Of a stretch of DNA of 64,000 nt, positions 35,066 to 48,420 are shown piece after piece. Below the pieces are notes generated by a model. It searched no databases. It worked only from the letters and a program-made list of their open reading frames with translations, and was not told the origin of the DNA. The stretch comes from Escherichia phage IrisVonRoten, in the sequence record MZ501075; one strand, given 5' to 3'. The position numbers were made by a program, and so were the translations under genes. Numbering within the stretch: the stretch's first letter is position 1; the number at the start of each line of letters is the position of its first letter.

Positions 35066-35138
35066 GCCGATCTAGTATAAAACGGTATTATCAAGCCGTA
35101 ACTGGTGGAAGATGTAGGTTCGAATCCTACGGTCGGTA
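35066..35138 (+). ncRNA. tRNA-like element (acceptor stem + canonical T-arm, no canonical anticodon arm)
   Basis: GTAGG-TTCGAAT-CCTAC T-arm; 7-bp acceptor pairing GCCGATC/GGTCGGT; no 5-bp/7-nt anticodon stem-loop found. Confidence 0.3.
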
Positions 35139-35749: not shown

Positions 35750-36697
35750 ATGTCTAATACTAAAAATATGAAAGAACTGACTTCTGAGCAAAAAGTAATT
35801 CGCACTATTAAACGTTGGAGTATTGGTGCTGTAGTTGGTTTAGCAGGTTTAATCCTAGCTTTTAATTCATATACTATTGTTTCTGATGGTACGGTTAAAA
35901 CCCAAACATTTCTAGGTAAAGTAGATCCTAACCCAGTATTACCTGGTTTCCATCTTGTAAACCCATTTGCATCTTTCGATACTTTTAGTACAAAAGATAT
36001 TGCTGTAAAATTAGATAAACTTCAGGTTCCTAGCCAGGATAAGTTTAAATCCACTGTTGACCTGACTGTTATGTTGCAGTTTGATGGTTCTAAGGCACCG
36101 ATCAACCGTATTAATGCGGGTACTCAAGATCAGGCTCTAGATAAGTATGTAACTGAAAAATTACTGTCTACTATTCGTGAGTTTGGTAAGTCTGTACCTA
36201 AAGCACAAGATTTGTTTGATGCTAAAATTCAAGCACAATTGCAAACTGCAATTCAACAGGAAGTTGAAGAGTATGCACGCCCCTATGGTTACACAGTTAA
36301 GCAAGTGTTCCTTCAGGATATTACATTGCCACCGGTAATTATGGAACAGGTACAGAATACCAAAGTTCGCGAAGAACAAGTTAATGCTGCGAAAGCTGAA
36401 TTAGCTCGCGTTGAACAAGAAGCACAGCAGAAGGTTAAACAAGCAGAAGCAGATCGTGAAGCTCGTAACAACCAAGCTATTGCAAACGAACGTGATGCAG
36501 ATGCTAAACTGTATGCAGCTAAGAAAGAAGCTGAAGCTAACGCTGCTCTGCAACGTACCATTACTCCTGAGATGATTCGCTGGAAGCAACTAGAAGTTGA
36601 AATGATTCGTGCTCAGAAGTATCAAGGTGGTGTACCGCAGACTGTGGTTGGCACTGGTTATGATGGCCAGATGATTATGGATATGCGTAACAAGTAA
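35750..36697 (+). CDS. SPFH/band-7 (prohibitin/HflKC-like) membrane protein
   Basis: N-terminal TM helix, SPFH-like core, Ala/Gln-rich coiled-coil C-terminus. Confidence 0.7.
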   Translation: MSNTKNMKELTSEQKVIRTIKRWSIGAVVGLAGLILAFNSYTIVSDGTVKTQTFLGKVDPNPVLPGFHLVNPFASFDTFSTKDIAVKLDKLQVPSQDKFKSTVDLTVMLQFDGSKAPINRINAGTQDQALDKYVTEKLLSTIREFGKSVPKAQDLFDAKIQAQLQTAIQQEVEEYARPYGYTVKQVFLQDITLPPVIMEQVQNTKVREEQVNAAKAELARVEQEAQQKVKQAEADREARNNQAIANERDADAKLYAAKKEAEANAALQRTITPEMIRWKQLEVEMIRAQKYQGGVPQTVVGTGYDGQMIMDMRNK

Positions 36698-38648: not shown

Positions 38649-38677
38649 TTGCTTGAATGCTAAATTCTCTGTATAAT
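38649..38677 (+). promoter_or_regulatory. T5-type early promoter
   Basis: TTGCTT, 17-bp spacer, TATAAT, then ATATATTTATAAATTTGAGAGAGG leader. Confidence 0.7.
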
Positions 38678-38707
38678 ATATTTATAAATTTGAGAGAGGA
38701 ATCTAGT

Positions 38708-39226
38708 ATGACTGTTGATGAACTAACAGAACACCTCTTATCTAGAGGGTTTGATGCAGATAAATATCATTGCTGGTTAAGCCCGGAAGGATGGCTAACA
38801 GTACCATTGTATGACTTCTCTGGGATGTTGAGAGGCTATCAGACGTATAATCCTTCTGCTCCAAAAGGTCATGGTAAATCTCCTTTTGAAGCTAAGTATT
38901 TTACTTATTCTACTACACAGTGTGTATGGGGGCTGGAAACTCTCAATGGGGATGAAAAAGTAGTATTGGTTGCGGAATCTGTATTTAAGGCTGTAGCATT
39001 ACATAACGCTGGTTATCCAGCCCTGGCAATGTTGGGTTCTTCTCCAGGAAAAGCGTTGTTAAAGCAATTGAAATTACTACCTTTTAAATTGGTAGCTGTT
39101 GGGGATAATGATCCTGCTGGTGAAAAATTTGCTAGACAATTAAATGGATTTGTTTCTCCTGTAGATGTGGATGAGATGTCTACCGAAAACTTGAAAAATT
39201 TTCTTGCTATGAAGCTAAATTTCTAA
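38708..39226 (+). CDS. small TOPRIM-like domain protein
   Basis: VLVAESVFKAV...VAVGDNDPAGEKFA resembles TOPRIM E...DxD; start placed after GAGAGAGGA SD. Confidence 0.5.
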   Translation: MTVDELTEHLLSRGFDADKYHCWLSPEGWLTVPLYDFSGMLRGYQTYNPSAPKGHGKSPFEAKYFTYSTTQCVWGLETLNGDEKVVLVAESVFKAVALHNAGYPALAMLGSSPGKALLKQLKLLPFKLVAVGDNDPAGEKFARQLNGFVSPVDVDEMSTENLKNFLAMKLNF

Positions 39227-39342: not shown

Positions 39343-39420
39343 GGTTCTCAAGCTCATATGGTATGAGCACCCGGCTCATAACCGGAAGGTACGTAGGTTC
39401 GAATCCTCGGGGAGCCACCA
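39343..39420 (+). tRNA. tRNA-Met (anticodon CAU; elongator or Ile2-type)
   Basis: Acceptor GGTTCTC/GGGAGCC, D-stem GCTC/GAGC, anticodon loop CTCATAA, weak T-stem. Confidence 0.6.
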
Positions 39421-39927: not shown

Positions 39928-40004
39928 GGGGGTGTAATCGAATTGGCATAGGTACTGGACTTAAAATTCAGGTTTTGTGGGTTCGAATCCCACCACCCCT
40001 ACCA
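39928..40004 (+). tRNA. tRNA, probable Leu (anticodon UAA) with short variable loop
   Basis: Acceptor GGGGGTG/CACCCCT, anticodon stem CTGGA/TTCAG with loop CTTAAAA, T-arm GTGGG-TTCGAAT-CCCAC; D-arm irregular. Confidence 0.5.
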
Positions 40005-40019
40005 ACTTAAGGAAATAAG

Positions 40020-40187
40020 ATGTATAGACATCCACCTCCGCCAACACGTCGTTCTAGGGAAGTCATCCTCATGGAATTGACGAAAAACTTCAAGGCGACC
40101 CTTGAGGATAGAGACTTAGGCACAGATGAAGACGTTGATTTCATCTGTAAACTATTAAAAATGAAACTGGAGAAACAACATGGCTAA
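40020..40187 (+). CDS. hypothetical small protein (55 aa)
   Basis: ATG after AAGGAAA SD directly after the tRNA. Confidence 0.4.
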   Translation: MYRHPPPPTRRSREVILMELTKNFKATLEDRDLGTDEDVDFICKLLKMKLEKQHG

Positions 40188-40386
40188 TCCTGAAATTACC
40201 ATGCAACGATTCATGGCTAAAGGCATGATAGCCGAGGCAGGCATTGAACAAGAAGTAAAAAGTTATTACGAACAGATTAAGGATATTATAGACTCTGCTA
40301 AAAACACCGGAGAAAAAGAACACGGTGCGGCAATTATGGCTATAACTCTTATTAGTCTAGACTTGGCCGAAGAATCCGGAGTTTAG
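40180..40386 (+). CDS. hypothetical small protein
   Basis: 68-aa ORF. Confidence 0.45.
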   Translation: MANPEITMQRFMAKGMIAEAGIEQEVKSYYEQIKDIIDSAKNTGEKEHGAAIMAITLISLDLAEESGV

Positions 40387-40476
40387 CTCCTCCAAACAGA
40401 ATTTTTAAAAATGTACTTGCCTTTTGCTTTAAATCTCTGATATAATAGTTATATAAATTGATGAAGGAGTTAACTA

Positions 40477-40752
40477 ATGCAAAATCGTGTTGTAGCAACT
40501 GGTATTGAAAGTGCAATCTGTAAATCCTGGGAAGACTGGGAAGGTGAGATTGAGTGGCTCTATCTCTATAACGTAGAACTCCTGCCGGAAGTTAAAGCTA
40601 AATGTGTTGAAGCTGGCATGGCTCCAGATGCAAAAGCTGATATTGATATTTCAATGCCTGAACTTAAAGGTCGTGTAGTTACCGTTAGTAATGAGGGCGA
40701 AGAAGTTTTTGAACTTCCGTTCTCCTTAACTGTCACTCCTAAGTTCGACTAA
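40477..40752 (+). CDS. hypothetical protein
   Basis: ATG after GAAGGAG SD and promoter. Confidence 0.6.
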   Translation: MQNRVVATGIESAICKSWEDWEGEIEWLYLYNVELLPEVKAKCVEAGMAPDAKADIDISMPELKGRVVTVSNEGEEVFELPFSLTVTPKFD

Positions 40753-40880
40753 CTAATACAGCACTGAGCAAGTTCTTCAAAATCTGACTTGCTCAGTGCC
40801 TTAAAACTTGATATAATAGTTATCTAATTTGGAAACATATTTAAAAGTGTTTAAACAAGTATTTGAATGCTTCTAAATAT

Positions 40881-40968
40881 GGGCGTTTATTCCGTAAGTG
40901 GTAGCGGAGGGGATTGTAAATCCCCGGTCATTGCGACTCGAGTGGTTCGACTCCATTAACGCCCACCA
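40881..40968 (+). tRNA. tRNA-Tyr (anticodon GUA)
   Basis: Acceptor GGGCGTT/AACGCCC, anticodon loop TTGTAAA, long variable arm, T-loop TTCGACT. Confidence 0.7.
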
Positions 40969-40976
40969 AATTTAAT

Positions 40977-41051
40977 ACACCTATCGTCTAAAGGCTAGGA
41001 CATCAGGATTTCAATCTGAGAATCGGAGTTCAATTCTCCGTGGGTGTACCA
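40977..41051 (+). tRNA. tRNA-Glu (anticodon UUC)
   Basis: Acceptor ACACCTA/TGGGTGT, D-stem GTCT/GGAC, anticodon loop ATTTCAA, T-loop TTCAATT. Confidence 0.7.
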
Positions 41052-41059
41052 ATTTCTGC

Positions 41060-41136
41060 ATTCCTAGAGTGTTACTGGACAGCATGTCGGTCTCCAAAAC
41101 CGTACGGTCTAGGTTCGAGTCCTAGTAGGTTTGCCA
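41060..41136 (+). tRNA. tRNA-Trp (anticodon CCA)
   Basis: Anticodon loop CTCCAAA, T-arm CTAGG-TTCGAGT-CCTAG; acceptor stem has mismatches. Confidence 0.5.
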
Positions 41137-41142
41137 AAATTT

Positions 41143-41217
41143 GCACCTTTAGCTGAGATGGATTAGCGCTTGCCTGAAGAGCTTGAGAGGTTCGTTCGAT
41201 ACGAACAGGGTGCACCA
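41143..41217 (+). tRNA. tRNA-Phe (anticodon GAA)
   Basis: Acceptor GCACCTT/AGGGTGC, anticodon loop CTGAAGA, T-loop TTCGATA; anticodon stem has two U-U mismatches. Confidence 0.55.
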
Positions 41218-41234
41218 AATTGAAGGAGATGCTG

Positions 41235-41498
41235 ATGCATCCTGAAAACTTCTTTATTTACTGCGCGGATAAGTCGCTGAAACGTAGAATTAACAAAGTC
41301 TATCATTATCGTGCTAGTCAACAGCCTTATGTATACGCTTTTGACGGCGATCACATTCCACTAGAACAATTATCCTGTGATTACATGATATTGAAGAACT
41401 TTGACGAGACAAAGATCTCAAGCGTTTATAATCGACAAAATCCATTAACGTGGAAATATAAGAAGAAAAAGAAAGGCATCAAATCCTTAAAAATGTAG
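41235..41498 (+). CDS. hypothetical protein
   Basis: ATG after AAGGAG SD. Confidence 0.5.
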   Translation: MHPENFFIYCADKSLKRRINKVYHYRASQQPYVYAFDGDHIPLEQLSCDYMILKNFDETKISSVYNRQNPLTWKYKKKKKGIKSLKM

Positions 41499-41527
41499 TT
41501 GCTTAGTTTCCAAAAGTTCTATATAAT
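41499..41527 (+). promoter_or_regulatory. T5-type early promoter
   Basis: TTGCTT, 17-bp spacer, TATAAT. Confidence 0.65.
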
Positions 41528-41575
41528 AATTACATAAATTGAACTGGAGAAGCAACATGACAGAACAAGATAAAC

Positions 41576-41651
41576 CGACCGTTGGCTGAATGGCTTAGGC
41601 GAAGGATTGCAAATCCTTTTTATGTGAGTTCAAATCTCATGCGGTCGTCCA
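41576..41651 (+). tRNA. tRNA-Cys (anticodon GCA)
   Basis: Acceptor CGACCGT/GCGGTCG, anticodon stem AAGGA/TCCTT loop TTGCAAA, T-loop TTCAAAT. Confidence 0.75.
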
Positions 41652-41653
41652 AT

Positions 41654-41795
41654 TTGCTGAAAGAATTGTTAAATCAATTCAGGCACGCGTAGGAACACTG
41701 TCTCCGTAATTGAAAGATGAGGCACGGTTTGGAGAGGTATGCCGCTACACGCTACGGTGCTAACTCCGTCTAGGTGAAAATCCTAGTCAGCAATA
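41654..41795 (+). ncRNA. long tRNA-like structured RNA (~140 nt)
   Basis: 7-bp terminal pairing TTGCTGA/TCAGCAA, internal hairpin CTAGG-TGAAAAT-CCTAG with non-canonical loop. Confidence 0.3.
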
Positions 41796-41803
41796 TAAAT
41801 TTA

Positions 41804-41886
41804 GGGTCGTTAGCCAAGCGGTTTGGCGGCGGATTGTTAATCCGTGTCGAAAGACAACGTAGGTTCGAATCCTACACGGCCCGCCA
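41804..41886 (+). tRNA. tRNA-Asn (anticodon GUU) with 13-nt variable region
   Basis: Acceptor GGGTCGT/ACGGCCC, anticodon stem GCGGA/TCCGT loop TTGTTAA, T-arm GTAGG-TTCGAAT-CCTAC. Confidence 0.6.
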
Positions 41887-41988
41887 AATTCTGTGTAGAG
41901 TTAAGTAAACCGGTAGCCAACCAGCTATCATTGCTGACATCGAATTCAGCCACAGATACCATTTTCATTAATAACTGAGGAAACAAGC

Positions 41989-42174
41989 ATGTCCAAGAAT
42001 GTGATTGCGCAGCTAGAAGTTCATCGTGATAGTACTATCAACAATATTGAAGTTGAGAAGAAATACATCGAAGAACTTAAACATGATATACTAGTAAGTC
42101 TCAATCGTCTTAATGTACGAAAAGAGTTTCTTAAAGAACTTAATGCAGCTATTGAAAAACTCAAAGCTGAGTAA
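41989..42174 (+). CDS. hypothetical coiled-coil small protein
   Basis: 61-aa ORF with SD. Confidence 0.5.
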   Translation: MSKNVIAQLEVHRDSTINNIEVEKKYIEELKHDILVSLNRLNVRKEFLKELNAAIEKLKAE

Positions 42175-42183
42175 ATAAATTAT

Positions 42184-42260
42184 GCGACCGGGGCTGGCTT
42201 GGTAATGGTACTCCCCTGTCACGGGAGGGAATGTGGGTTCAAATCCCATCGGTCGCGCCA
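42184..42260 (+). tRNA. tRNA-Asp (anticodon GUC)
   Basis: Acceptor GCGACCG/CGGTCGC, anticodon stem CTCCC/GGGAG loop CTGTCAC, T-loop TTCAAAT. Confidence 0.75.
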
Positions 42261-42277
42261 AATAAGGTAGGTTAGCT

Positions 42278-42436
42278 ATGGAACGTAGGGAGTTTACTCC
42301 AGAAGAGATAGAGCAGATAAAAGAATCTGCTATGAAAAATGCTAGAATATCTCTGTCACTGGAAGGTATCATTATTAGTGATGTAAACTTTGAAAAAATC
42401 AAAGCCATAGCTGATGAACTGGAAAAAGTAATTTAA
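42278..42436 (+). CDS. FicA/VbhA-like antitoxin homologue (52 aa)
   Basis: ATG after AAGGTAGG SD; NARISLSLEGI matches the S-x-x-x-E-G inhibitory helix motif recalled for VbhA/YhfG antitoxins; below track cutoff. Confidence 0.5.
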   Translation: MERREFTPEEIEQIKESAMKNARISLSLEGIIISDVNFEKIKAIADELEKVI

Positions 42437-42437
42437 T

Positions 42438-42513
42438 ACATCCATAGCTCAATGGTTAGAGCTACCGCCTCTTAAGCGGAGGGTTCTAGGTTCAAGTCCT
42501 AGTGGGTGTACCA
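42438..42513 (+). tRNA. tRNA-Lys (anticodon CUU)
   Basis: Acceptor ACATCCA/TGGGTGT, D-stem GCTC/GAGC, anticodon loop CTCTTAA, T-loop TTCAAGT. Confidence 0.75.
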
Positions 42514-42539
42514 AATTAAACTAGCACGAGAAATATGCT

Positions 42540-42887
42540 ATGATTAATGCTAAAGAAGAGTTGTTACTTGCCCTAAAGAATACTAAGTCTGAAGTTAAGT
42601 GTATTAAGATAGAATTCGGTTATTATGGGGACAAAGAAGTTTGGGTATTACCAGTAGGTTATACAGAAAAAGATATTGAAGATTTTCTAAATAACCTAGA
42701 CTTTAAATATGATTCTGGTTTTGGTGGACAATTGCTTTATGGTAACGTATGGTTTACTGATGGAACTTGGTTAGAACGTGGTGAATATGATGGTTCTGAA
42801 TGGTGGGAGTATAAGACTACGCCAGCAATCCCAGAAGAATGCCGAACAATTAATGGTGAAGTAGATAATACTTTACGGTTAAACTAA
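42540..42887 (+). CDS. hypothetical protein
   Basis: 115-aa ORF. Confidence 0.6.
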   Translation: MINAKEELLLALKNTKSEVKCIKIEFGYYGDKEVWVLPVGYTEKDIEDFLNNLDFKYDSGFGGQLLYGNVWFTDGTWLERGEYDGSEWWEYKTTPAIPEECRTINGEVDNTLRLN

Positions 42888-42894
42888 TAAAATT

Positions 42895-42999
42895 TCAGTG
42901 CAGAACACGGAGCTAGCAATTCGGAAGTGCTGACTCATGATAAGCTGCCTATGTACTTGCTAAGCGGTCGTGTCCAAGACTCGGACTCTTGCACTGAAA
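42895..42999 (+). ncRNA. structured RNA domain closed by 10-bp long-range helix
   Basis: TTTCAGTGCA at 42895 pairs with TGCACTGAAA at 42990; no ORF. Confidence 0.3.
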
Positions 43000-43009
43000 A
43001 CAATCAAAC

Positions 43010-43130
43010 ATTCTAGCGTGGTTGATGGGGAAACCAGCTTGGCGAGGGCAGAAGCTCGTTCGATTCGAGTGAAAGAATGGTTCTCGTAAGTCCGCACAAG
43101 TGATAACAGGTTCGAGTCCTGTCTAGAATG
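43010..43130 (+). ncRNA. long tRNA-like RNA (~121 nt) with duplicated T-arm
   Basis: Perfect 7-bp acceptor ATTCTAG/CTAGAAT; D-arm TGGT/ACCA; two T-arm hairpins (TTCGATT and TTCGAGT loops); no canonical anticodon arm. Confidence 0.35.
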
Positions 43131-43145
43131 ACACTATAAAGTTTA

Positions 43146-43257
43146 CTTATTATGTAGGTTCCGATAGATCGGCGGGTCTATTCTGGCATTTAAGAGAGGT
43201 CTCGCAAACTTCTTTGTCAGCCGTGGGGTTGGTAGCCTCCAGGTGGCCTACACAATA
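43146..43257 (+). ncRNA. structured RNA domain closed by ~12-bp long-range helix
   Basis: CTTATTATGTAGG pairs with CCTACACAATAAG; internal hairpins; no ORF. Confidence 0.3.
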
Positions 43258-43279
43258 AGTAAATTTATTAAAAATTCAT

Positions 43280-43308
43280 TTGCTATTTTGCTTAATTCTC
43301 TGTATAAT
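43280..43308 (+). promoter_or_regulatory. T5-type early promoter
   Basis: TTGCTA, 17-bp spacer, TATAAT. Confidence 0.7.
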
Positions 43309-43340
43309 ATATCTTATAAAGTGAAGAGAAGGAAAGCTAA

Positions 43341-43499
43341 ATGAAGTATAAAATTGCATCAGTATTCATGTGTACTTGGGTTATTCCTATAGTAATAGTA
43401 GGGTTTAACATAGATAACTTTTCTATCATAGAAAAGTTATTAGGACTAAGTACAGGCTTTACAATGCTAGGATTAAGCATGTTGTGGCTGAAGAAATAA
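43341..43499 (+). CDS. small hydrophobic membrane peptide (52 aa)
   Basis: ATG after GAAGAGAAGGAAAG SD; two predicted TM segments. Confidence 0.5.
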   Translation: MKYKIASVFMCTWVIPIVIVGFNIDNFSIIEKLLGLSTGFTMLGLSMLWLKK

Positions 43500-43503
43500 T
43501 TTT

Positions 43504-43580
43504 CTCCGATTAGCTCAATTGGCTAGAGTACACCGTTTGGGGCGGTGGGGTTGAAGGTTCGAGTCCTTCATTGGAGACCA
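43504..43580 (+). tRNA. tRNA-Pro (anticodon UGG)
   Basis: Acceptor CTCCGAT/ATTGGAG, D-stem GCTC/GAGT, anticodon stem CACCG/CGGTG loop TTTGGGG, T-loop TTCGAGT. Confidence 0.8.
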
Positions 43581-43587
43581 AACAATT

Positions 43588-43662
43588 GCGGGTGGGAGGC
43601 ATAGAGTTCTTCTTAGTCTCATAAGCTAAGTAAGTCCAGGGCAGTACTGGAACCCGCTACCA
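43588..43662 (+). ncRNA. possible tRNA-like hairpin RNA
   Basis: GCGGGTG/ACCCGC terminal pairing with ACCA tail, but no canonical T-loop. Confidence 0.2.
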
Positions 43663-43682
43663 TTTTAATAGGGGATTTCGAA

Positions 43683-43847
43683 ATGAAAGTATTTCGATTA
43701 GTAGTAAGTGATCGACGTTCTAGCAAAGATCGTTCGAAGTATACCTTAGCCCATTATGGTAAAGATGAAAATGAAGTAATGGCTGAATTTGGTATTAACC
43801 ATCCTTACTTAAAAGTCTACTCTATTAAGGAAGTTTATGCTTATTAA
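43683..43847 (+). CDS. hypothetical small protein (54 aa)
   Basis: ATG after AGGGGA. Confidence 0.35.
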   Translation: MKVFRLVVSDRRSSKDRSKYTLAHYGKDENEVMAEFGINHPYLKVYSIKEVYAY

Positions 43848-44310
43848 CAGGGTACTTCAAGCCCTGGATCTTCCAAGGCACTTTACTATTACTGACTCCT
43901 TAATACGTAGGTATATGGAGAAGTATAACGAAATATCTGGTAAAGAAGGTAAACTAAAGTCCTCGGAGTTTAAGTTCTGTTATAGAATGGCAGCGTTAAA
44001 CCTGCTGAAGTATAAAAGGGAGCATAAAATCCCTATAACAGAAGGGTTTGTATATGTAATAGGTAATCCAGCATGGCCTGGACTCTATAAGATAGGTATG
44101 ACAGTAGACGTAAATGAAAGACTGTCTAGTTATCAAACATATTCTCCCTATCGTGATTACAAGTTATACCATTTTAGATTCTCCTCGGACAAGAGAAGAA
44201 CTGAAAAAGCATTACATAGTCTTCTGAAAGACTACAAAGTATCAGGAGAATGGTTTGAAGTACCTCTGTTAGACGCTTTCAAACTATTAGTAGAGAATTT
44301 GGATTGCTAG
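43837..44310 (+). CDS. T5orf172-domain (GIY-YIG-like) protein, putative homing endonuclease
   Basis: GFVYVIGN...LYKIGMT motif; 3' end overlaps start of tRNA-Lys. Confidence 0.6.
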   Translation: MLINRVLQALDLPRHFTITDSLIRRYMEKYNEISGKEGKLKSSEFKFCYRMAALNLLKYKREHKIPITEGFVYVIGNPAWPGLYKIGMTVDVNERLSSYQTYSPYRDYKLYHFRFSSDKRRTEKALHSLLKDYKVSGEWFEVPLLDAFKLLVENLDC

Positions 44311-44378
44311 CTCAACTGGATAAGAGTAGCGGACCTTTAATCCGTCAGTTCTGGGTTCGAATCCCAGGCAATCCACCA
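44301..44378 (+). tRNA. tRNA-Lys (anticodon UUU), C33 in anticodon loop
   Basis: Acceptor GGATTGC/GCAATCC, anticodon stem GCGGA/TCCGT loop CCTTTAA, T-arm CTGGG-TTCGAAT-CCCAG. Confidence 0.6.
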
Positions 44379-44385
44379 AATTTTT

Positions 44386-44459
44386 GCTCGGTTAGTTTAA
44401 TGGGAGAACCCCGTCTTTACACGGCGGTTGCGATAGTTCGATTCTATCACCGAGTACCA
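44386..44459 (+). tRNA. tRNA-Val (anticodon UAC)
   Basis: Acceptor GCTCGGT/ACCGAGT, D-stem GTTT/GAAC, anticodon loop TTTACAC, T-loop TTCGATT. Confidence 0.75.
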
Positions 44460-44484
44460 AGTACAAGAAATTTCAAAAACTCAT

Positions 44485-44513
44485 TTGCTTAATGCTTAAT
44501 TTCTTGTTATAAT
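44485..44513 (+). promoter_or_regulatory. T5-type early promoter driving a ~600-nt ORF-free RNA region
   Basis: TTGCTT, 17-bp spacer, TATAAT. Confidence 0.65.
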
Positions 44514-44551
44514 ATTTATATAAATTGATGAGGAGAAATCCTCATCATAGT

Positions 44552-44738
44552 TCACTAAGGTATTAGCTCGACCTAGGACTGGCTGCCAAAAAGCACGATC
44601 CCTACGATTTGGGAGAAGTTCTAGATTAGTCCACTAGATTCAGCGGCAACTGAATAGTGTATCGGGTTTGCGAGATGACGTAGTTCCTTCCGCTCGAAGC
44701 GAAGGTGCTGTAGTTACGCCGAGCTAATAGCCTTAGTA
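44552..44738 (+). ncRNA. structured RNA domain (~190 nt) closed by long-range helix
   Basis: CTAAGGTATTAGCTCG pairs with CGAGCTAATAGCCTTAG; internal hairpins; no ORF. Confidence 0.3.
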
Positions 44739-44751
44739 AACTAAAGAATTT

Positions 44752-44830
44752 GGGGAATGGGTCTGCATGGAGTGGACACCTCGCTTGCACCGAGGACATC
44801 AGAACGGTTCGATTCCGTTATTCTCCACCA
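44752..44830 (+). tRNA. tRNA-Ala (anticodon UGC)
   Basis: Acceptor GGGGAAT/ATTCTCC with G3-U70 pair, anticodon stem CCTCG/CGAGG loop CTTGCAC, T-loop TTCGATT. Confidence 0.75.
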
Positions 44831-44835
44831 AATAC

Positions 44836-44912
44836 GCGTGATTGATGGAATGGGCATACATACCGTCCTTAGAAGTCGGGTTTTGAGGGTTCGAATCCCT
44901 TGTCACGCACCA
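44836..44912 (+). tRNA. tRNA, probable Leu (anticodon UAG) with short variable loop
   Basis: Acceptor GCGTGAT/GTCACGC, anticodon loop CTTAGAA, T-arm GAGGG-TTCGAAT-CCCTT. Confidence 0.5.
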
Positions 44913-44945
44913 AATTTGATGGTCAGAGTAAATTAAACCTACTAT

Positions 44946-44984
44946 CTCGGTTGAGCTGTTTTAATGGGTTCGAATCCCAGCGAG
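44946..44984 (+). ncRNA. tRNA fragment-like mini-helix
   Basis: CTCG...CGAG stem enclosing TGGG-TTCGAAT-CCCA; no full cloverleaf. Confidence 0.2.
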
Positions 44985-45024
44985 GCGTAACTGCCTGGTG
45001 TGATAGAGGCATCATCTTATTATT

Positions 45025-45115
45025 GGAAGAGCAAATCGAATTGGCGACGAAAACCGCTTGGAAAGCGGCTGACTGGTAAAACGGCTTGAGAGTTCAAATC
45101 TCTCCTCTTCCGCCA
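45025..45115 (+). tRNA. tRNA-Ser (anticodon GGA)
   Basis: Acceptor GGAAGAG/CTCTTCC, anticodon loop TTGGAAA, long variable arm, T-loop TTCAAAT. Confidence 0.75.
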
Positions 45116-45134
45116 AACAATTGAGGTAATAATA

Positions 45135-45482
45135 ATGCTAGCAAAAGATAAAGCTCTAGAGTTTTTAGCATCTTTAGATGAAGATAAGATTATAGATGCA
45201 GCTGAAAAAGCTGGAATGCCTGATTTAACATATCTGGAACGTGCTATTATTGCTCGTGATAAACTACAGAAAGAATTTGCTATTGCTCAGGAGGAGTTTT
45301 ATACTCGCTATAACGCTCTTACTAAGCAAATTGAAAATGAGTGTTCTCATACTTGGGGAGTAACAGAAAACCTAGGTAATGATCACGATGGCTGGTCTAA
45401 AGTAAAAATTACCTATTATCATCGTAGGACTTGTAAAATCTGTGGAAAAGTAGAAAACTTCACTAGTACGAGTGACTATTAG
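45135..45482 (+). CDS. hypothetical protein with C-terminal Cys/His cluster
   Basis: 115-aa ORF. Confidence 0.55.
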   Translation: MLAKDKALEFLASLDEDKIIDAAEKAGMPDLTYLERAIIARDKLQKEFAIAQEEFYTRYNALTKQIENECSHTWGVTENLGNDHDGWSKVKITYYHRRTCKICGKVENFTSTSDY

Positions 45483-45495
45483 TATAATAAATACT

Positions 45496-45585
45496 AGAAG
45501 ATAGGACGTAGTGGTACGTAACTGGTCTTGAAAACCAGCCCGCTGTAGTGATACGGTGATGGTTCGACTCCATTATCTTCTGCCA
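45496..45585 (+). tRNA. tRNA-Ser (anticodon UGA)
   Basis: Acceptor AGAAGAT/ATCTTCT, anticodon stem CTGGT/ACCAG loop CTTGAAA, long variable arm, T-loop TTCGACT. Confidence 0.75.
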
Positions 45586-45601
45586 ACTTATAGGGTAATA
45601 T

Positions 45602-45784
45602 ATGTCTTTAACGAAAACTGTGAAGGTTACACTAACTGATGGCACAGAGTTTAGTGCACAAATAACCTTACTAGAAGACGGTTATTGGGAAGTATATCTT
45701 CCACACGTTAATTCTACTGGTAGAGGATGGACTCAACAACAGGCTATTGTTGATGCTTTAAATGAGGCTTCCGCTGGTTTATAA
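45602..45784 (+). CDS. hypothetical small protein
   Basis: 60-aa ORF. Confidence 0.45.
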   Translation: MSLTKTVKVTLTDGTEFSAQITLLEDGYWEVYLPHVNSTGRGWTQQQAIVDALNEASAGL

Positions 45785-45791
45785 AAATTCT

Positions 45792-45921
45792 TGGAATATG
45801 CCGGAATTGGTAGACGGGACTGCCCAATAGGTTTACTAGGAACATCCACTCCTAGAAATATACCTTAAAAGCGGTTGAGTTAAATGGTCTAACTCATGAA
45901 GGTTCAAGTCCTTCTATTCCT
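45792..45921 (+). ncRNA. long tRNA-like RNA (~128 nt)
   Basis: GGAATA/TATTCC terminal pairing, T-arm GAAGG-TTCAAGT-CCTTC, D-arm-like hairpin with GG loop. Confidence 0.3.
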
Positions 45922-46036
45922 TGATACATCAATGGCTCAAAGTGTAACGGTGCTATTTGATGCGCTTGGAAAGACTTTCCCGACATGCGTTCGGGGGTAA
46001 GCTTCTGAGGCTAGAATAGAAGAGTTTCTGAGAGCC

Positions 46037-46156
46037 GCCACAATTGAAAATTCGTACTCGTCTTGAGCTGCGTGCAATAGGAGATAACTTGATTAGTATT
46101 CTAGAACATGCTAATTGAGGATGGTTTCGCTAACCCTGCGAGTTTTCAATTGTGGC
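46037..46156 (+). repeat. 14-bp perfect inverted repeat pair flanking ~90 nt
   Basis: GCCACAATTGAAAA at 46037-46050 and TTTTCAATTGTGGC at 46143-46156; second arm overlaps the 5' end of tRNA-His. Confidence 0.6.
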
Positions 46157-46228
46157 TATATCATAATTGGTTAATGATCCTGATTGTGAATCAGGCCTAT
46201 GTGGATTCGAATTCCACTAGCCACCCCA
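46152..46228 (+). tRNA. tRNA-His (anticodon GUG)
   Basis: Acceptor GTGGCTA/TAGCCAC, D-stem TCAT/ATGA, anticodon stem CCTGA/TCAGG loop TTGTGAA, T-loop TTCGAAT. Confidence 0.8.
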
Positions 46229-46253
46229 AATTAACTTAAATAGGAAATAAAAT

Positions 46254-46454
46254 ATGGCTGATTTCTGCAAACAATGCTCCATTGATATGTGGGGCAGAGA
46301 TACTGGTGACTTAGCTGGTCTGATTACAGAAGCCGAAGTCAAAGAAGGTTATGGTGCAGTTGTGGTTTGCGAAGGATGCGGAGTCATTCGAGTAGACCAT
46401 GAAGGTAAGCGCCTTGAAGAACCTGAGCCAATCGCAACGGTTCCTGTAGAGTGA
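46254..46454 (+). CDS. small Cys-rich (zinc-ribbon-like) protein
   Basis: CKQC...CEGC pairs. Confidence 0.5.
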   Translation: MADFCKQCSIDMWGRDTGDLAGLITEAEVKEGYGAVVVCEGCGVIRVDHEGKRLEEPEPIATVPVE

Positions 46455-46455
46455 A

Positions 46456-47037
46456 ATGAAATTAGAGAATTTTAAAGTAATCCCAGAATATCCAGAATAC
46501 TTAATCTCTCCATACGGAGAGGTTTACTCTACCAAGAGTAATAAATTACTTACACATCATTTAGGCAGTGCAGGATACCCGTTTGTAACGTTCTATGAAC
46601 AGGGTAAAAATGTTTCTGTTGTACTGCATAGATTATTGGCTAGAGTATTTAAAGATTTACCTTCGCTAGAATCTGAACTAGAGGTGGATCACAAAGATAG
46701 GAATAAATTGAACTTTGCCCTGGATAATCTAGTTGTCATGACCAAGGAAGATCACAGAGTAAAAACTACACTTGAAAGAGGACATATAATAGGTGGTAAC
46801 AAGTGCCCTTATTGTAGTAAACAAATAAATTCTTCAGCTAAAACTTGTTTTAATTGTAAACCTAAGAGTAACCCTGCTATTACAGCAGAGCAAATAGAAT
46901 ATTGGGTAATAAATTATTCGTGGGTTAAAGCATCAAAAGAGCTGGGACTATCTGATAATGGTCTACGTAAACGTTATAAATCCTTAACAGGTAAAGATCC
47001 AAAAAGTATTAAGAAGAAGGTTAGCCAAGTCGGTTAA
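46456..47037 (+). CDS. HNH homing endonuclease
   Basis: LEVDHKDRNKLNFALDNL HNH core; C-terminal zinc ribbon; 3' end overlaps tRNA-Gln. Confidence 0.7.
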   Translation: MKLENFKVIPEYPEYLISPYGEVYSTKSNKLLTHHLGSAGYPFVTFYEQGKNVSVVLHRLLARVFKDLPSLESELEVDHKDRNKLNFALDNLVVMTKEDHRVKTTLERGHIIGGNKCPYCSKQINSSAKTCFNCKPKSNPAITAEQIEYWVINYSWVKASKELGLSDNGLRKRYKSLTGKDPKSIKKKVSQVG

Positions 47038-47090
47038 GGCTGGGGTCTCTGAAATCCTGATCAGTGGTTCAAATCCACTACCTTCTGCCA
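47015..47090 (+). tRNA. tRNA-Gln (anticodon CUG)
   Basis: Acceptor AGAAGGT/ACCTTCT, anticodon loop CTCTGAA, T-loop TTCAAAT. Confidence 0.7.
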
Positions 47091-47096
47091 AACAAT

Positions 47097-47174
47097 TGGG
47101 GATTAGCTTAGCTTGGCCTAAAGCTTCGGCCTTTGAAGTCGAGATCATTGGTTCAAATCCAATATCCCCTGCCA
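47097..47174 (+). tRNA. tRNA-Gln (anticodon UUG)
   Basis: D-stem GCTT/AAGC, anticodon loop CTTTGAA, T-arm ATTGG-TTCAAAT-CCAAT; U1-U72 mismatch. Confidence 0.6.
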
Positions 47175-47185
47175 GCCAAATTAAT

Positions 47186-47260
47186 GCGTGATTAGTTCAG
47201 TGGCTAGAATAACTGGCTTCCAACCAGTAGACACGAGTTCGACTCTCGTATCCCGCACCA
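47186..47260 (+). tRNA. tRNA-Gly (anticodon UCC)
   Basis: Acceptor GCGTGAT/ATCCCGC, anticodon stem ACTGG/CCAGT loop CTTCCAA, T-loop TTCGACT. Confidence 0.75.
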
Positions 47261-47274
47261 AATAAGGAATCTCT

Positions 47275-47526
47275 ATGCACGTTTTTGAGTTTCGTAATAA
47301 AAGTACCGATAAACGAGTTATCATTATTGGGGAAACATACCGAGCTTATGAACAAACTGACGGCTCTGTTATCTTGAATGATGAAAAAGGAGGTTTTAGC
47401 TTTTATCCAGAAGAACCTTACGAAGAGTTTCGAAAACAATTTAACCTAGACTGGAGAAAGCATTTAAACACTGTTGCTTCATCTGTAGTATTGCCAACTA
47501 CCAGTACTGTACTCTCTAATGGCTGA
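47275..47526 (+). CDS. hypothetical protein
   Basis: 83-aa ORF after AAGGAAT SD. Confidence 0.5.
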   Translation: MHVFEFRNKSTDKRVIIIGETYRAYEQTDGSVILNDEKGGFSFYPEEPYEEFRKQFNLDWRKHLNTVASSVVLPTTSTVLSNG

Positions 47527-47683
47527 CAACCTAAAAGTAAAGATTGATAAACAAAAGAAACGTGTAGAAGTAGAGATTGGTGAAGAACGTGTTGCCTTTA
47601 CTTTTGAATTTCTACAGCAAATGGCAATGACAGTTATGACTGATAAGTCCCCTGTTATTGAAAAAGAAATCCCGTTGAAATAA
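47519..47683 (+). CDS. hypothetical small protein (54 aa)
   Basis: ATG overlapping previous stop; followed by hairpin. Confidence 0.3.
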   Translation: MADNLKVKIDKQKKRVEVEIGEERVAFTFEFLQQMAMTVMTDKSPVIEKEIPLK

Positions 47684-47693
47684 CGGGATTATC

Positions 47694-47768
47694 GCTCCTA
47701 AAGCATTGCTGGCGATGCAGTTGCCTTGTAAGCATCTGAACCGGGTTCGATTCCTGGTGGGAGCACCA
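47694..47768 (+). tRNA. tRNA-Thr (anticodon UGU)
   Basis: Acceptor GCTCCTA/TGGGAGC, D-stem GCAT/ATGC, anticodon loop CTTGTAA, T-loop TTCGATT. Confidence 0.7.
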
Positions 47769-47783
47769 AATTTAAAAATTCAT

Positions 47784-47812
47784 TTGCTTTCTCTCTTATT
47801 TATCGCTATAAT
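47784..47812 (+). promoter_or_regulatory. T5-type early promoter
   Basis: TTGCTT, 17-bp spacer, TATAAT. Confidence 0.7.
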
Positions 47813-47842
47813 ATTTATATAAATTAATGAGAGGGAAACCAA

Positions 47843-48136
47843 ATGAAACGTTATCTTTCTGTAGTATTCCAAACTGGTGGCCAAAGATACACCTATGAAT
47901 TTCCATCTTCTTGGAAAATCAAAGAGGGTGATCAAGTAGTAGTGCTAACACCGCGTGAAGAGTATAAAGTAGTAACGGTTAAACAAGTATTTCCAAAAGA
48001 TCATGAACCAGCTAAAGGCATCCGCTATAAGATGATTCATGGTGTGGTTCGTCAAGTACCACGAACTGAGGTAGAAGTAGATAAGACTGGAGAAGCTAAA
48101 TTTCATTATACTTCTTACCTAAACGAGAGGCGATAA
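47843..48136 (+). CDS. hypothetical protein
   Basis: 97-aa ORF. Confidence 0.6.
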   Translation: MKRYLSVVFQTGGQRYTYEFPSSWKIKEGDQVVVLTPREEYKVVTVKQVFPKDHEPAKGIRYKMIHGVVRQVPRTEVEVDKTGEAKFHYTSYLNERR

Positions 48137-48342
48137 TGAGAATTTCTTTTACAGAAAAGATCATGAGTAATGGTGTTATGATCATTACCGCGTGGGATGG
48201 TAATCAGTGGTGCAGTATTTCAGGTATTAAGCCTGCAGATCAAACACCTGAAAACATCCGTAAAGTAAAACGAAAGATGGCGGAATGTGCCCGACTTCCC
48301 GGTGCGCCTAGAAATGGTAAACGTTCTACAATTAAATGTTAA
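48136..48342 (+). CDS. hypothetical small protein
   Basis: 68-aa ORF, ATGA overlap with upstream gene. Confidence 0.5.
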   Translation: MRISFTEKIMSNGVMIITAWDGNQWCSISGIKPADQTPENIRKVKRKMAECARLPGAPRNGKRSTIKC

Positions 48343-48343
48343 T

Positions 48344-48420
48344 GCTTCGGTAGCTTAGCGATCTAAAGCACTCGGCCGATAACCGAGAGATCGGGGGTTT
48401 AAATCCCTCCCGGAGTACCA
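48344..48420 (+). tRNA. tRNA-Ile (anticodon GAU), C33 in anticodon loop
   Basis: Acceptor GCTTCGG/CCGGAGT, anticodon stem CTCGG/CCGAG loop CCGATAA, T-arm GGGGG-TTTAAAT-CCCTC. Confidence 0.65.

What the first reader, a model, noticed from the sequence alone, without database searches (positions are those of the whole stretch)
39928..48420. tRNAs with non-canonical features
Two tRNAs carry leucine anticodons (UAA at 39928, UAG at 44836) but fold as short-variable-loop tRNAs, whereas bacterial tRNA-Leu normally has a long extra arm. tRNA-Asn(GUU) at 41804 has a 13-nt variable region. tRNA-Lys(UUU) and tRNA-Ile(GAU) have C instead of U at position 33. Several have mismatched acceptor or anticodon stems. 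These could affect aminoacylation identity or decoding, or my manual folds may be mis-registered.
Basis: seen in the sequence. Interest (0 to 1): 0.4.

Follow-up and report, generated by a model that had tools for sequence, protein, structure and literature searches.

The report
Remodelled tRNAs in a T5-like phage
The odd tRNA genes are real: this T5-like phage has leucine tRNAs that lack the usual extra arm and an asparagine tRNA that has gained one. Both designs are common in phages but I found no description of them, and their purpose (possibly dodging bacterial tRNA-cutting defences) is untested.

Summary
All four observations hold. ARAGORN and Infernal give the same anticodons and the same odd shapes: tRNA-Leu(UAA) and tRNA-Leu(UAG) with a 5-nt variable loop, tRNA-Asn(GUU) with a 13-nt variable region (a GUC-GAAA-GAC hairpin), C33 in tRNA-Lys(UUU) and tRNA-Ile(GAU), and mismatched stems in about eight tRNAs.

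The window is the tRNA array of a T5-like phage. Three features are widespread alleles, not accidents:
- Armless Leu tRNAs occur in hundreds of T5-like genomes, in more than 120 other viral contigs and in bacterial tRNA arrays. The cloverleaf shows overwhelming covariation, and A73, U48, A14, A15 and G18G19 are conserved.
- Arm-bearing Asn tRNAs occur in more than 120 viral contigs. The arm is a covarying stem, usually GNRA-capped, and G73 is kept.
- The C33 Lys allele is in about 85 records.
- Ile C33 is a rare variant (5 of 241 records).

Synthetase identity elements are intact, so altered identity is unlikely. The best reading is functional cognate tRNAs remodelled outside the identity elements. 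They are exchanged as cassettes and are plausibly shaped by host tRNA nucleases; that last step is inferred only.

Two published results cut against easy assumptions: E. coli LeuRS failed to charge a Streptomyces type I tRNALeu, and the arm-bearing Asn did not rescue Bas34 from PARIS.

The parts
39928..40004 (+). tRNA-Leu(UAA), type I (armless). It has a 3-bp D stem, an 11-nt D loop GAAUUGGCAUA, a 5-nt variable loop GUUUU (39972-39976), A73 and an encoded CCA.
   Evidence: ARAGORN. Rfam 57.4 bits. Structural alignment to E. coli leuZ and leuW. Identical in about 290 T5-like records. T5 itself has no such gene.
44836..44912 (+). tRNA-Leu(UAG), type I (armless). Variable loop GUUUU (44880-44884), A73, one U.U in the anticodon stem, and A37 instead of the G37 of E. 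coli leuW.
   Evidence: ARAGORN. Infernal alignment. It sits in the slot after tRNA-Ala where T5 has an 85-nt type II Leu(UAG); the two are 65% identical. About 162 records hold it at 90% identity or more. In the anticodon-masked isotype HMM test its top hit is Leu.
41804..41886 (+). tRNA-Asn(GUU) with an extra arm. The variable region 41846-41858 is a GUC-GAAA-GAC hairpin followed by AAC. It has G73, a 4-bp D stem and an anticodon stem carrying the same UAAUCC motif as E. coli tRNA-Asn.
   Evidence: ARAGORN. Infernal places a 10-nt insertion. About 274 T5-like records and about 320 records of other phage families hold it. The arm covaries across the family.
44301..44378 (+). tRNA-Lys(UUU), C32-C33 allele (C33 at 44335). 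It has C16 and C41 like the PARIS-resistant T5 tRNA-Lys, but U39 like E. coli. A73 is kept.
   Evidence: ARAGORN, sequence check. 76 records are identical and 9 are at 95-99%; about 172 carry the T5-type allele. AriB determinants are from PMC12409363.
48344..48420 (+). tRNA-Ile(GAU) with C33 (48377). It differs from the T5 gene only by A1G and U33C.
   Evidence: All 20 IMG/VR T5-like contigs have U33. Only 5 of 241 records are identical to the window.
41060..41217 (+). tRNA-Trp(CCA) 41060-41136 has U2.U71, U3.U70 and one U.U in the anticodon stem. tRNA-Phe(GAA) 41143-41217 has two U.U in the anticodon stem.
   Evidence: ARAGORN. Low Rfam scores of 36.3 and 42.4 bits. Phe is 97% identical to T5; Trp is 57%. 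Relatives of Phe with a fully paired stem exist.
44752..44830 (+). tRNA-Ala(UGC), the most aberrant gene of the range. It has G8, an irregular D arm and a 7-nt variable loop, and it keeps G3.U70 and A73.
   Evidence: Found by ARAGORN only. Rfam misses it even at E<=1. Relatives show compensatory changes in the T and anticodon stems. It is 67% identical to T5 tRNA-Ala.
47694..47768 (+). tRNA-Thr(UGU) with a U.U pair in the anticodon stem. It is 96% identical to the T5 tRNA-Thr that helps neutralise PARIS.
   Evidence: PMC12409363.
43837..44310 (+). ORF with T5orf172 and MUG113 domains (which I take to be GIY-YIG-like, from my own knowledge). It abuts, and overlaps by 10 nt, the C33 tRNA-Lys(UUU).
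   Evidence: Pfam PF13455 at 8e-19 and PF10544 at 2e-14.
46456..47037 (+). HNH_3/NUMOD4 homing endonuclease ORF. Its end overlaps tRNA-Gln(CUG).
   Evidence: Pfam PF13392 at 3.6e-9 and PF07463 at 2.6e-6. T5 carries hegA-hegF in the same region.
39343..39420 (+). tRNA with a CAU anticodon, the homologue of T5 tRNA-Ile2. ARAGORN missed it.
   Evidence: Rfam 40.3 bits. 97% identical to the gene that T5 annotates as tRNA-Ile2 (CAU).

Best explanation
These are genuine, working tRNA genes of the early-region tRNA array of a T5-like (Demerecviridae) phage. They are most likely charged by the host synthetases with the amino acid their anticodon implies. They supply codons the phage uses heavily; UUA and CUA are 26% and 20% of Leu codons in the window.

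Their odd shapes are changes in parts of the molecule that the relevant synthetases do not read:
- the variable arm of tRNA-Leu has been removed;
- a GNRA-capped hairpin has been added to the variable region of tRNA-Asn;
- position 33 and the anticodon-stem pairs of Lys, Thr, Phe and others have been altered.

The variants exist as alternative cassettes at fixed slots in the array, next to homing endonuclease genes, and are shared across unrelated phage families.

Shown here: the structures, their conservation and covariation, the retained identity nucleotides, and the allelic mosaic.

Inferred: charging by host LeuRS and AsnRS, and that the remodelling is kept by selection from host tRNA-targeting immune nucleases. 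PARIS, PrrC and other HEPN nucleases, Schlafen and retron effectors are the known examples, rather than drift.
For: Real and constrained:
- 89 diverse type I Leu tRNAs, including both window genes, pair in 99.2% of cells of the cloverleaf.
- 19 of 20 pairs show double changes. The covariation score is 1.016, against 0.25 shuffled and 0.11-0.19 slid.
- U8, A14, A15, G18, G19, A20a, U33, A35, U48 and A73 are invariant.
- In a set not selected on Leu features, 42 of 49 short Leu tRNAs have A73 and 41 of 49 have U48.
- In the loci fetched with the armless-Leu pattern, Ser (116 long, 2 short) and Tyr (40 long, 3 short) keep their arms, so arm loss is specific to Leu.

Why arm loss could be tolerated:
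- E. coli LeuRS needs A73, A15-U48, G18G19 and A20a, but not the arm or the anticodon. Arm-less minimal tRNALeu variants stay active (PMC9976931).
- The window genes have the same 3-bp D stem and 11-nt D loop as leuW and leuZ.

Asn arm:
- Among 77 unique variable regions, 63 fold into hairpins of 3 bp or more, against 19 (maximum 29) in shuffles. 50 have GNRA loops.
- G73 is present in 91 of 92.

Allelic mosaic:
- Window tRNAs against T5 tRNAs are either 96-100% identical (13 genes) or 55-78% identical (8 genes: Tyr, Glu, Trp, Asn, Lys-UUU, Ala, Leu-UAG, Gly).
- Endonuclease ORFs sit inside the array.

Defence link:
- T5 tRNA-Lys, Thr and Asn variants neutralise PARIS (PMC11464382 and PMC12409363).
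- The window Lys carries two of the three mapped resistance substitutions, C16 and C41.
- HEPN effectors cut after U in anticodon loops, including after U33.

Against: - No charging or expression data exist for these alleles.
- E. coli LeuRS did not charge the type I tRNALeu(CAA) of S. coelicolor and is described as charging only type II (PMC6614811).
- Bas34 (SelmaRatti) carries the same arm-bearing Asn, yet needed plasmid-borne T5 tRNA-Asn to escape PARIS. The window Asn also keeps the E. coli AriB site UAAUC|C.
- No nuclease known to me or found in the library reads the variable arm of tRNA-Leu.
- The window Lys lacks the strongest PARIS-resistance change, U39A.
- The Ile C33 is rare, so it needs no adaptive story.
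- The anticodon-masked isotype HMM test was a near tie for Leu(UAA) and did not place the long-arm Asn with Asn.
Confidence: 0.55

Rival explanations
1. Neutral remodelling. The tRNAs work as ordinary cognate decoders for phage-preferred codons. The arm loss (Leu), arm gain (Asn), C33 and mismatches are tolerated drift or streamlining in short-lived phage tRNAs. They spread by hitch-hiking with homing endonucleases and have no role in immune evasion.
For: - LeuRS does not need the arm.
- Type I tRNALeu(CAA) also sits in an rRNA-linked housekeeping tRNA cluster of Tumebacillus avium and in S. coelicolor, where no phage-defence logic applies.
- The Ile C33 is a rare variant.
- The arm-bearing Asn did not protect Bas34 from PARIS.
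- Endonuclease genes flank the divergent alleles.
- UUA and CUA are heavily used.
Against: - The Asn arm is a conserved, covarying, mostly GNRA-capped hairpin in more than 90 distinct sequences. That is hard to get by drift.
- The bimodal divergence from T5 falls on Lys(UUU), Asn, Tyr and Ala, whose host or T5 counterparts are published nuclease targets.
- 41% of Leu tRNAs in a phage set not selected on Leu are armless, whereas the literature describes bacterial tRNALeu as almost always type II.
Confidence: 0.3
2. Altered function. The Leu-anticodon tRNAs are not leucylated by the host enzyme, or are charged with something else. Alternatively, the remodelled tRNAs act mainly as decoys or inhibitors that soak up tRNA nucleases or other host factors rather than as decoders.
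For: - E. coli LeuRS failed on a type I tRNALeu.
- Belukhina et al. raise competition or inhibition by overexpressed viral tRNAs as a possibility.
- With the anticodon masked, Leu(UAA) scores as well against the Lys and Gln profiles as against Leu.
Against: - The LeuRS determinants are all present, and A73 and U48 are conserved.
- G3.U70 is absent. There is no long arm for SerRS or TyrRS, and the UAA and UAG anticodons exclude the anticodon-reading synthetases (inference from the identity rules).
- The anticodon loops are conserved as decoding loops, with U33 and A35 invariant.
- The codons they read are the ones the phage over-uses.
Confidence: 0.1
3. Pseudogenes or fold artefacts. The unusual genes are decaying copies, or the gene finder forced a cloverleaf onto them.
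For: - Low Rfam scores for Trp (36.3 bits) and the ACU tRNA-like gene (34.5 bits).
- Rfam misses Ala altogether.
- T5 annotates tRNA-like stable RNAs and one tRNA pseudogene in this region.
Against: - Two independent programs agree on Leu, Asn, Lys and Ile.
- Sequence is identical across hundreds of isolates.
- Covariation is strong.
- Every gene has an encoded CCA.
Confidence: 0.03

Closest known systems
Type I (short variable loop) tRNALeu: S. coelicolor tRNALeu(CAA) (Fan et al. 2019, PMC6614811) and animal mitochondrial tRNALeu
   Same: A Leu anticodon on a tRNA with a 4-5 nt variable loop. It can coexist with type II tRNALeu in one compartment. A73 and U8-A14 are present.
   Different: - The phage genes keep the type II style D arm of E. 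coli tRNALeu (3-bp stem, GAAUUGGYAKA loop).
- They must be charged by enterobacterial LeuRS, which failed on the Streptomyces tRNA.
- They are mobile alleles in phage tRNA arrays rather than single chromosomal genes.
- Anticodons are UAA and UAG here; UAG, UAA, CAA, AAG and CAG occur across phages.
[quoted passage not shown]
   Same: - Same phage family, same array and same slots.
- The window Thr is 96% identical to the T5 gene.
- The window Lys shares C16 and C41 with the resistant T5 Lys.
   Different: - The window Lys and Asn are different alleles (74% and 66% identity).
- Lys has U39, not A39, plus C32-C33.
- Asn keeps the host-like cleavage motif and instead carries an extra arm.
- The same Asn allele did not suffice in Bas34.
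- None of the window alleles has been tested.
Canonical E. coli type II tRNALeu (leuZ UAA, leuW UAG)
   Same: Same anticodons, D-arm architecture, A14, A15-U48, G18G19, A20a and A73. Leu(UAA) also has the A36-A37-A38 loop of leuZ.
   Different: - The 13-15 nt variable arm is replaced by GUUUU.
- Leu(UAG) has A37 where leuW has G37.
- There is no detectable sequence match to any E. coli chromosome.
Class II tRNAs (Ser, Leu, bacterial Tyr, Sec), the only tRNAs normally carrying a helical variable arm
   Same: The Asn variable region is a helical stem-loop inserted between positions 44 and 48, with 3-4 unpaired bases on its 3' side.
   Different: - The isotype is Asn, which as far as I know is type I elsewhere.
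- The D stem is 4 bp, as in type I tRNAs.
- The arm is short (3-5 bp) and usually GNRA-capped.
- AsnRS identity (anticodon plus G73) does not involve the arm.

Membership tests
Rfam RF00005 tRNA | Score at or above the gathering threshold (29 bits) with a full-length cloverleaf alignment | tested here: met
   Leu(UAA) 57.4, Leu(UAG) 47.7, Asn 58.4, Lys(UUU) 59.9 and Ile 59.9 bits. tRNA-Ala at 44752 is not met.
Bacterial type II tRNALeu | Long variable arm (more than 10 nt, helical) | tested here: not met
   Both genes have a 5-nt variable loop GUUUU.
Bacterial type II tRNALeu | E. coli LeuRS identity set: A73, A14, A15-U48, G18G19 and A20a in a 3-bp-stem D arm | tested here: met
   Structural alignment with leuW and leuZ. 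These positions are invariant in 89 relatives. The rules are from PMC9976931.
Type I tRNALeu (S. coelicolor, animal mitochondria) | Leu anticodon on a cloverleaf with a short variable loop, maintained by selection | tested here: met
   ARAGORN and Infernal folds. Covariation score 1.016 against 0.25 shuffled, with 99.2% of cells paired.
Type I tRNALeu (S. coelicolor, animal mitochondria) | Leucylated by the LeuRS of the cell it works in | not testable with these tools
   There is no biochemical data. EcLeuRS did not charge Sco tRNALeu(CAA), but arm-less E. coli tRNALeu variants are charged.
PARIS-evading phage tRNAs (T5 Lys, Thr, Asn) | Substitutions at the mapped AriB determinants (U16C, U39A, A41C in Lys; changed bases around 40|41 in Asn) | tested here: inconclusive
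   Lys has C16 and C41 but keeps U39. Asn keeps UAAUCC, identical to the E. coli motif quoted in PMC12409363.
PARIS-evading phage tRNAs (T5 Lys, Thr, Asn) | Not cleaved by AriB, and rescues infection of PARIS+ cells | not testable with these tools
   There is only indirect evidence. Bas34 carries the arm-bearing Asn allele and still needed T5 tRNA-Asn.
Class II (long-arm) tRNA architecture, applied to the Asn gene | Helical variable arm supported by covariation | tested here: met
   63 of 77 unique variable regions form hairpins of 3 bp or more, against 19 in shuffles. Stems differ in sequence and loops are mostly GNRA.
Class II (long-arm) tRNA architecture, applied to the Asn gene | 3-bp D stem with unpaired 13 and 22, typical of class II cores | tested here: not met
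   The window Asn has a 4-bp D stem, GCCA/UGGC.
tRNA-Asn (E. coli AsnRS substrate) | GUU anticodon plus G73 | tested here: met
   Window gene. G73 in 91 of 92 arm-bearing relatives. The rule is from PMC9976931.

The most novel reading that the evidence does not exclude
Phage tRNA arrays carry two systematically remodelled tRNA architectures that their enterobacterial hosts lack: armless (type I) tRNALeu and arm-bearing tRNAAsn. On this reading they are kept because host immune effectors or other tRNA-binding factors read the variable region or overall shape of the tRNA. It would also mean that enterobacterial LeuRS charges armless tRNALeu in vivo, contrary to the current statement that it charges only type II.
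Probability: 0.3. Interest if true: 0.75.

Novelty: new variant of a known kind. Interest (0 to 1): 0.5.

Why it matters
A recent review states that tRNALeu and tRNASer carry a long arm in all organisms except animal mitochondria. The one bacterial exception described (Streptomyces) was presented as rare.

Here, armless tRNALeu makes up about 40% of Leu tRNAs in one sample of phage tRNA arrays, and a structured extra arm on tRNAAsn recurs in over a hundred viral contigs.

If enterobacterial LeuRS charges these tRNAs, the rules for LeuRS recognition need revising, and ready-made compact Leu tRNAs become available for engineering.

If the remodelling blocks immune nucleases, the variable region joins the anticodon loop and stem as a battleground between phages and tRNA-targeting defences. 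The allele content of a phage's tRNA array would then become informative about which hosts it can infect, which matters for choosing therapeutic T5-like phages.

Tried and rejected
- **Host origin of the Leu genes.** No E. coli chromosome matched Leu(UAA), even at E<=10.
- **Schlafen idea.** I know from memory that human SLFN11 targets type II tRNAs. The bacterial Schlafen studied cuts the anticodon arm of Lys, Met and T5 Ala, and no role for the variable arm is reported.
- **Retron-Kva2 HEPN.** It cuts tRNALeu after U33, which is unrelated to the arm.
- **"The Asn arm shields against PARIS".** This is weakened. Bas34 (SelmaRatti) has the same arm-bearing Asn and still needed T5 tRNA-Asn, and the AriB motif is intact.
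- **Anticodon-masked isotype HMMs.** Ten controls classified correctly and Leu(UAG) came out as Leu. Leu(UAA) was a near tie (Lys 35.7, Leu 34.7). The long-arm Asn scored best against Tyr, probably because of the arm. Inconclusive for those two.
- **Promoter and terminator scan.** No enrichment over shuffles (33 against 36 expected). Only individual TTGCTA-17-TATAAT sites sit before tRNA clusters.
- **Literature searches for prior descriptions.** I found none of armless phage tRNALeu or arm-bearing tRNAAsn. One search was badly posed (min_terms 1), but none of its listed, top-ranked papers contains "type I tRNALeu". Much of the older literature is not in the library, including the 1980s T5 tRNA sequencing papers, so absence of evidence is weak.
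- **A crude parse of discriminator bases** was mis-registered and was redone.

Full report
**What the region is.** ARAGORN finds 25 tRNA genes, all on the + strand, between 35065 and 48592. Each is followed by an encoded CCA. Rfam's tRNA model finds 23 at its gathering score, including one with a CAU anticodon at 39343-39417 that ARAGORN missed. The 8.9 kb around the finding is about 92% identical to Escherichia and Salmonella phages of the T5 group, and 641 phage records match it. The annotated T5 genome has the same array in the same order, interleaved with small ORFs, HNH endonuclease genes and several "stable RNAs".

**Check of the observation.** Every item holds.
- Both Leu-anticodon genes are 77 nt including CCA and have a 5-nt variable loop. 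Infernal aligns Leu(UAG) as a short-loop tRNA with one non-standard pair in the anticodon stem.
- The Asn gene has a 13-nt variable region, GUCGAAAGACAAC (41846-41858). Infernal treats it as a 10-nt insertion. It reads as a 3-bp stem capped by a GAAA loop.
- Lys(UUU) and Ile(GAU) have C at position 33 (44335 and 48377).
- Mismatched stems occur in Trp, Phe, Leu(UAG), Thr, Lys(CUU), Met, Gly and Gln(UUG).
Rfam misses it even at E<=1. It keeps G3.U70 and A73, and its stems covary in relatives.

**The armless Leu tRNAs are common and constrained.**
- T5 itself has an 85-nt type II Leu(UAG) in the slot after tRNA-Ala. The window has a 77-nt gene there that is only 65% identical, so this is a replacement and not a deletion.
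- T5 lacks Leu(UAA). The window copy is identical in about 290 records.
- The armless Leu(UAG) is present at 90% identity or more in about 162 records, against about 54 for the T5-type armed allele.
- Relatives at 80-86% identity occur in FelixO1-like, PVP-SE1-like, Pectobacterium, Aeromonas, Vibrio, Proteus and Pseudomonas phages.
- A pattern scan of IMG/VR asked for a Leu-type D loop, an NAR anticodon and short-loop spacing. It hit its 120-locus limit. It gave 126 genes, 111 of them unique, in 64 clusters at 85% identity, with anticodons UAG, UAA, CAA, AAG and CAG.
- On 89 diverse sequences, the cloverleaf with a 3-bp D stem and a 5-nt variable loop pairs in 99.2% of cells. 19 of 20 pairs show changes on both sides. 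The covariation score is 1.016, against 0.25 in shuffles and 0.11-0.19 for slid partners.
- In the same loci Ser and Tyr keep their arms (116 of 118 and 40 of 43).
- In loci fetched with the Asn query, which are therefore not selected on Leu, 56 of 136 Leu tRNAs are 80 nt or shorter. Of the 49 unique ones, 42 have A73 and 41 have U48.
Most of those hits lie in dense tRNA arrays of MAG contigs (88 of 121 loci with five or more tRNAs per 8 kb). One lies in an rRNA-linked tRNA cluster of the complete Tumebacillus avium chromosome.

**Will they be leucylated?**
- For: the review of tRNA identity states that E. coli LeuRS relies on A73, the A15-U48 pair, G18G19 and A20a. The anticodon and the long arm are dispensable, and arm-less minimal variants remain active. 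Aligned by structure with leuW and leuZ fetched from MG1655, both window genes have the same 3-bp D stem, the same 11-nt loop (GAAUKGGCAUA against RAAUYGGUAGA), U48 and A73.
- For, by elimination: they lack G3.U70, lack an arm for SerRS or TyrRS, and have anticodons that no anticodon-reading synthetase should accept. This is my inference from the identity rules.
- Against: Fan et al. found that E. coli LeuRS did not charge the type I tRNALeu(CAA) of S. coelicolor at all, and they describe the enzyme as specific for type II.
- Charging is therefore likely but unproven.
- The codons these tRNAs read are heavily used. UUA is 26% and CUA is 20% of Leu codons in the window's long ORFs. From my own knowledge, both are rare in E. 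coli.

**The arm-bearing Asn.**
- The window allele is present at 95% identity or more in about 270 records, against about 134 for the T5-type short-loop allele.
- Full-length relatives at 80-90% identity occur in about 320 records of large Klebsiella, Enterobacter and Serratia phages.
The variable regions are 11-19 nt.
- Of 77 unique ones, 63 fold into hairpins of at least 3 bp, against a mean of 19 (maximum 29) after shuffling. 50 have GNRA loops.
- Stems differ in sequence between relatives, for example GUC/GAC, GUCA/UGAC, GUUC/GGAC, GAGC/GCUC and GCUU/…GGC.
- Of 92 unique full genes, 91 have G73 and 89 have a fully paired acceptor stem. Asparagine identity in E. coli is the anticodon plus G73, so the arm should not change identity.
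- Only 3 of 45 Asn genes were long in loci not selected on Asn, so this design is a minority in that sample.
- Arm-bearing Asn genes with other anticodon stems also exist.

**C33.**
- The Ile gene differs from T5's by A1G and U33C only. All 20 T5-like contigs in IMG/VR have U33, and only 5 of 241 records match the window exactly. It is a rare variant shared by a few isolates.
- The Lys(UUU) gene is a distinct allele, 74% identical to T5's. It is present unchanged in 76 records and near-identical in 9 more, against about 172 with the T5-type allele.
- Belukhina et al. mapped three changes that protect T5 tRNA-Lys from the PARIS nuclease AriB: U39A (complete protection), A41C (strong) and U16C (significant). 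The window allele has C16 and C41 but U39.
- C33 removes the uridine 5' of the wobble base. From my own knowledge PrrC cuts there. A HEPN retron effector also cuts tRNAs after U in the anticodon loop, and its tRNALeu fragment ends at U33. That C33 confers resistance is my inference and is untested.

**Mosaic structure.** Compared slot by slot with T5, 13 window tRNAs are 96-100% identical and 8 are only 55-78% identical: Tyr, Glu, Trp, Asn, Lys(UUU), Ala, Leu(UAG) and Gly. In several of the divergent slots, the host tRNA or the T5 allele is a published target of a defence nuclease:
- Lys and Asn by PARIS.
- Tyr by retron Eco7.
- Lys by a bacterial Schlafen, which also cuts T5 Ala.

A T5orf172/MUG113 ORF abuts the Lys gene, and an HNH/NUMOD4 ORF overlaps Gln(CUG). 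This fits exchange of tRNA cassettes by homing, with diversifying selection. It does not prove that selection.

**Evidence against the defence reading.**
- No nuclease is known to read the Leu arm.
- The arm-bearing Asn keeps the exact AriB motif of E. coli tRNA-Asn.
- Bas34, which I identified as phage SelmaRatti and showed to carry the same anticodon arm and the same GUCGAAAGACAAC arm, still needed T5 tRNA-Asn from a plasmid to escape PARIS.
- Type I tRNALeu also exists in housekeeping contexts in bacteria.

**Comparison with what is known.**
- T5 tRNA arrays, and the use of variant phage tRNAs against tRNA-cleaving defences, are established.
- Type I tRNALeu is established for animal mitochondria and one Streptomyces gene.
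- Public records annotate these phage genes simply as tRNA-Leu and tRNA-Asn, with occasional "tRNA-Xle" or "tRNA-OTHER".
- I found no paper that notes the missing arm in phage tRNALeu or the extra arm in phage tRNAAsn. The library lacks much of the older subscription literature, so this is a weak negative.

**Verdict.** The interest lies not in this window but in what it points to: two recurrent, selected, apparently undescribed tRNA architectures in phages. I file it as a new variant of a known kind, with moderate interest.

Noticed in passing
window 35065-35139 (+): A weak tRNA-like gene. ARAGORN calls it tRNA-Ser with an ACU anticodon and an 8-bp acceptor stem; Rfam gives 34.5 bits. T5 has the same element inside its annotated "RNAX, stable RNA with unknown functions".
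   Followed up: partly
window 44752-44830 (+): tRNA-Ala(UGC) is so aberrant (G8, irregular D arm, 7-nt variable loop) that Rfam's tRNA model misses it at E<=1. Even so, G3.U70 and A73 are kept and relatives show compensatory stem changes. It is only 67% identical to T5 tRNA-Ala, which a bacterial Schlafen cleaves efficiently.
   Followed up: partly
window 45025-45111 and 45854-45922 (+): Sub-threshold tRNA-like matches: tRNA-Sec model 24 bits at E 0.56, and tRNA model 23.9 bits at E 0.36. They lie where T5 has tRNA-Ser2(GGA) and the tRNA-like stable RNAs RNA1, RNAI and RNAIII. They may be decayed or highly diverged tRNA-like genes.
   Followed up: no
window 38657-39226 (+): An ORF with a Toprim_2 domain (E 3.5e-5) lies directly upstream of the Ser(GCU)/CAU tRNA pair. 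Its T5 counterpart, T5.076, is noted as having a Toprim/OLD-family sub-domain. AriB, the PARIS tRNA nuclease, is also a Toprim protein.
   Followed up: no
window 35750-36697 (+): An SPFH/Band 7 family ORF (E 2e-17) lies between tRNA-Arg and the main tRNA cluster.
   Followed up: no
window 44836-44912; locus L001 9625-9709: The phage Leu(UAG) tRNAs, both the armless window allele and the armed T5 allele, have A37 where E. coli leuW has G37, the site of m1G37. Most armless UAG relatives also read CUUAGAA. This may affect reading-frame maintenance on CUN codons.
   Followed up: no
L125 7191-7283; L012 (tRNA-Ile tat, 91 nt): Many tRNA arrays, viral and bacterial, contain 85-93 nt tRNAs with a UAU (Ile) anticodon and a variable region of about 20 nt. 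There are 10-14 such genes in each set of about 120 loci. This is another isotype with an unexpected long variable region.
   Followed up: partly
L164 3188-3261, L134 3735-3808, L142 4842-4915 (Tumebacillus avium and T. lipolyticus): An armless tRNA-Leu(CAA) sits in tRNA clusters of these genomes. In L164 the cluster lies directly beside 16S, 23S and 5S rRNA genes of a complete chromosome, so this is a cellular, apparently housekeeping, type I tRNALeu outside Streptomyces.
   Followed up: partly
E. coli plasmids, e.g. NZ_CP065971.1 116625-116647: The only E. coli matches to the phage Leu(UAA) are 23-nt T-arm matches (E about 7, possibly chance) to genes annotated "tRNA-OTHER" on 22 large plasmids. 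This may mean those replicons carry unusual tRNA genes of their own.
   Followed up: no
L382 17598-17681 (Escherichia phage SelmaRatti, MZ501103): The deposited annotation of tRNA-Asn (locus 17605-17681, record 72604-72680) starts 7 nt inside the gene. The extra arm probably confused the gene finder. This phage also has a third tRNA-Lys(UUU) allele, with G39.
   Followed up: partly
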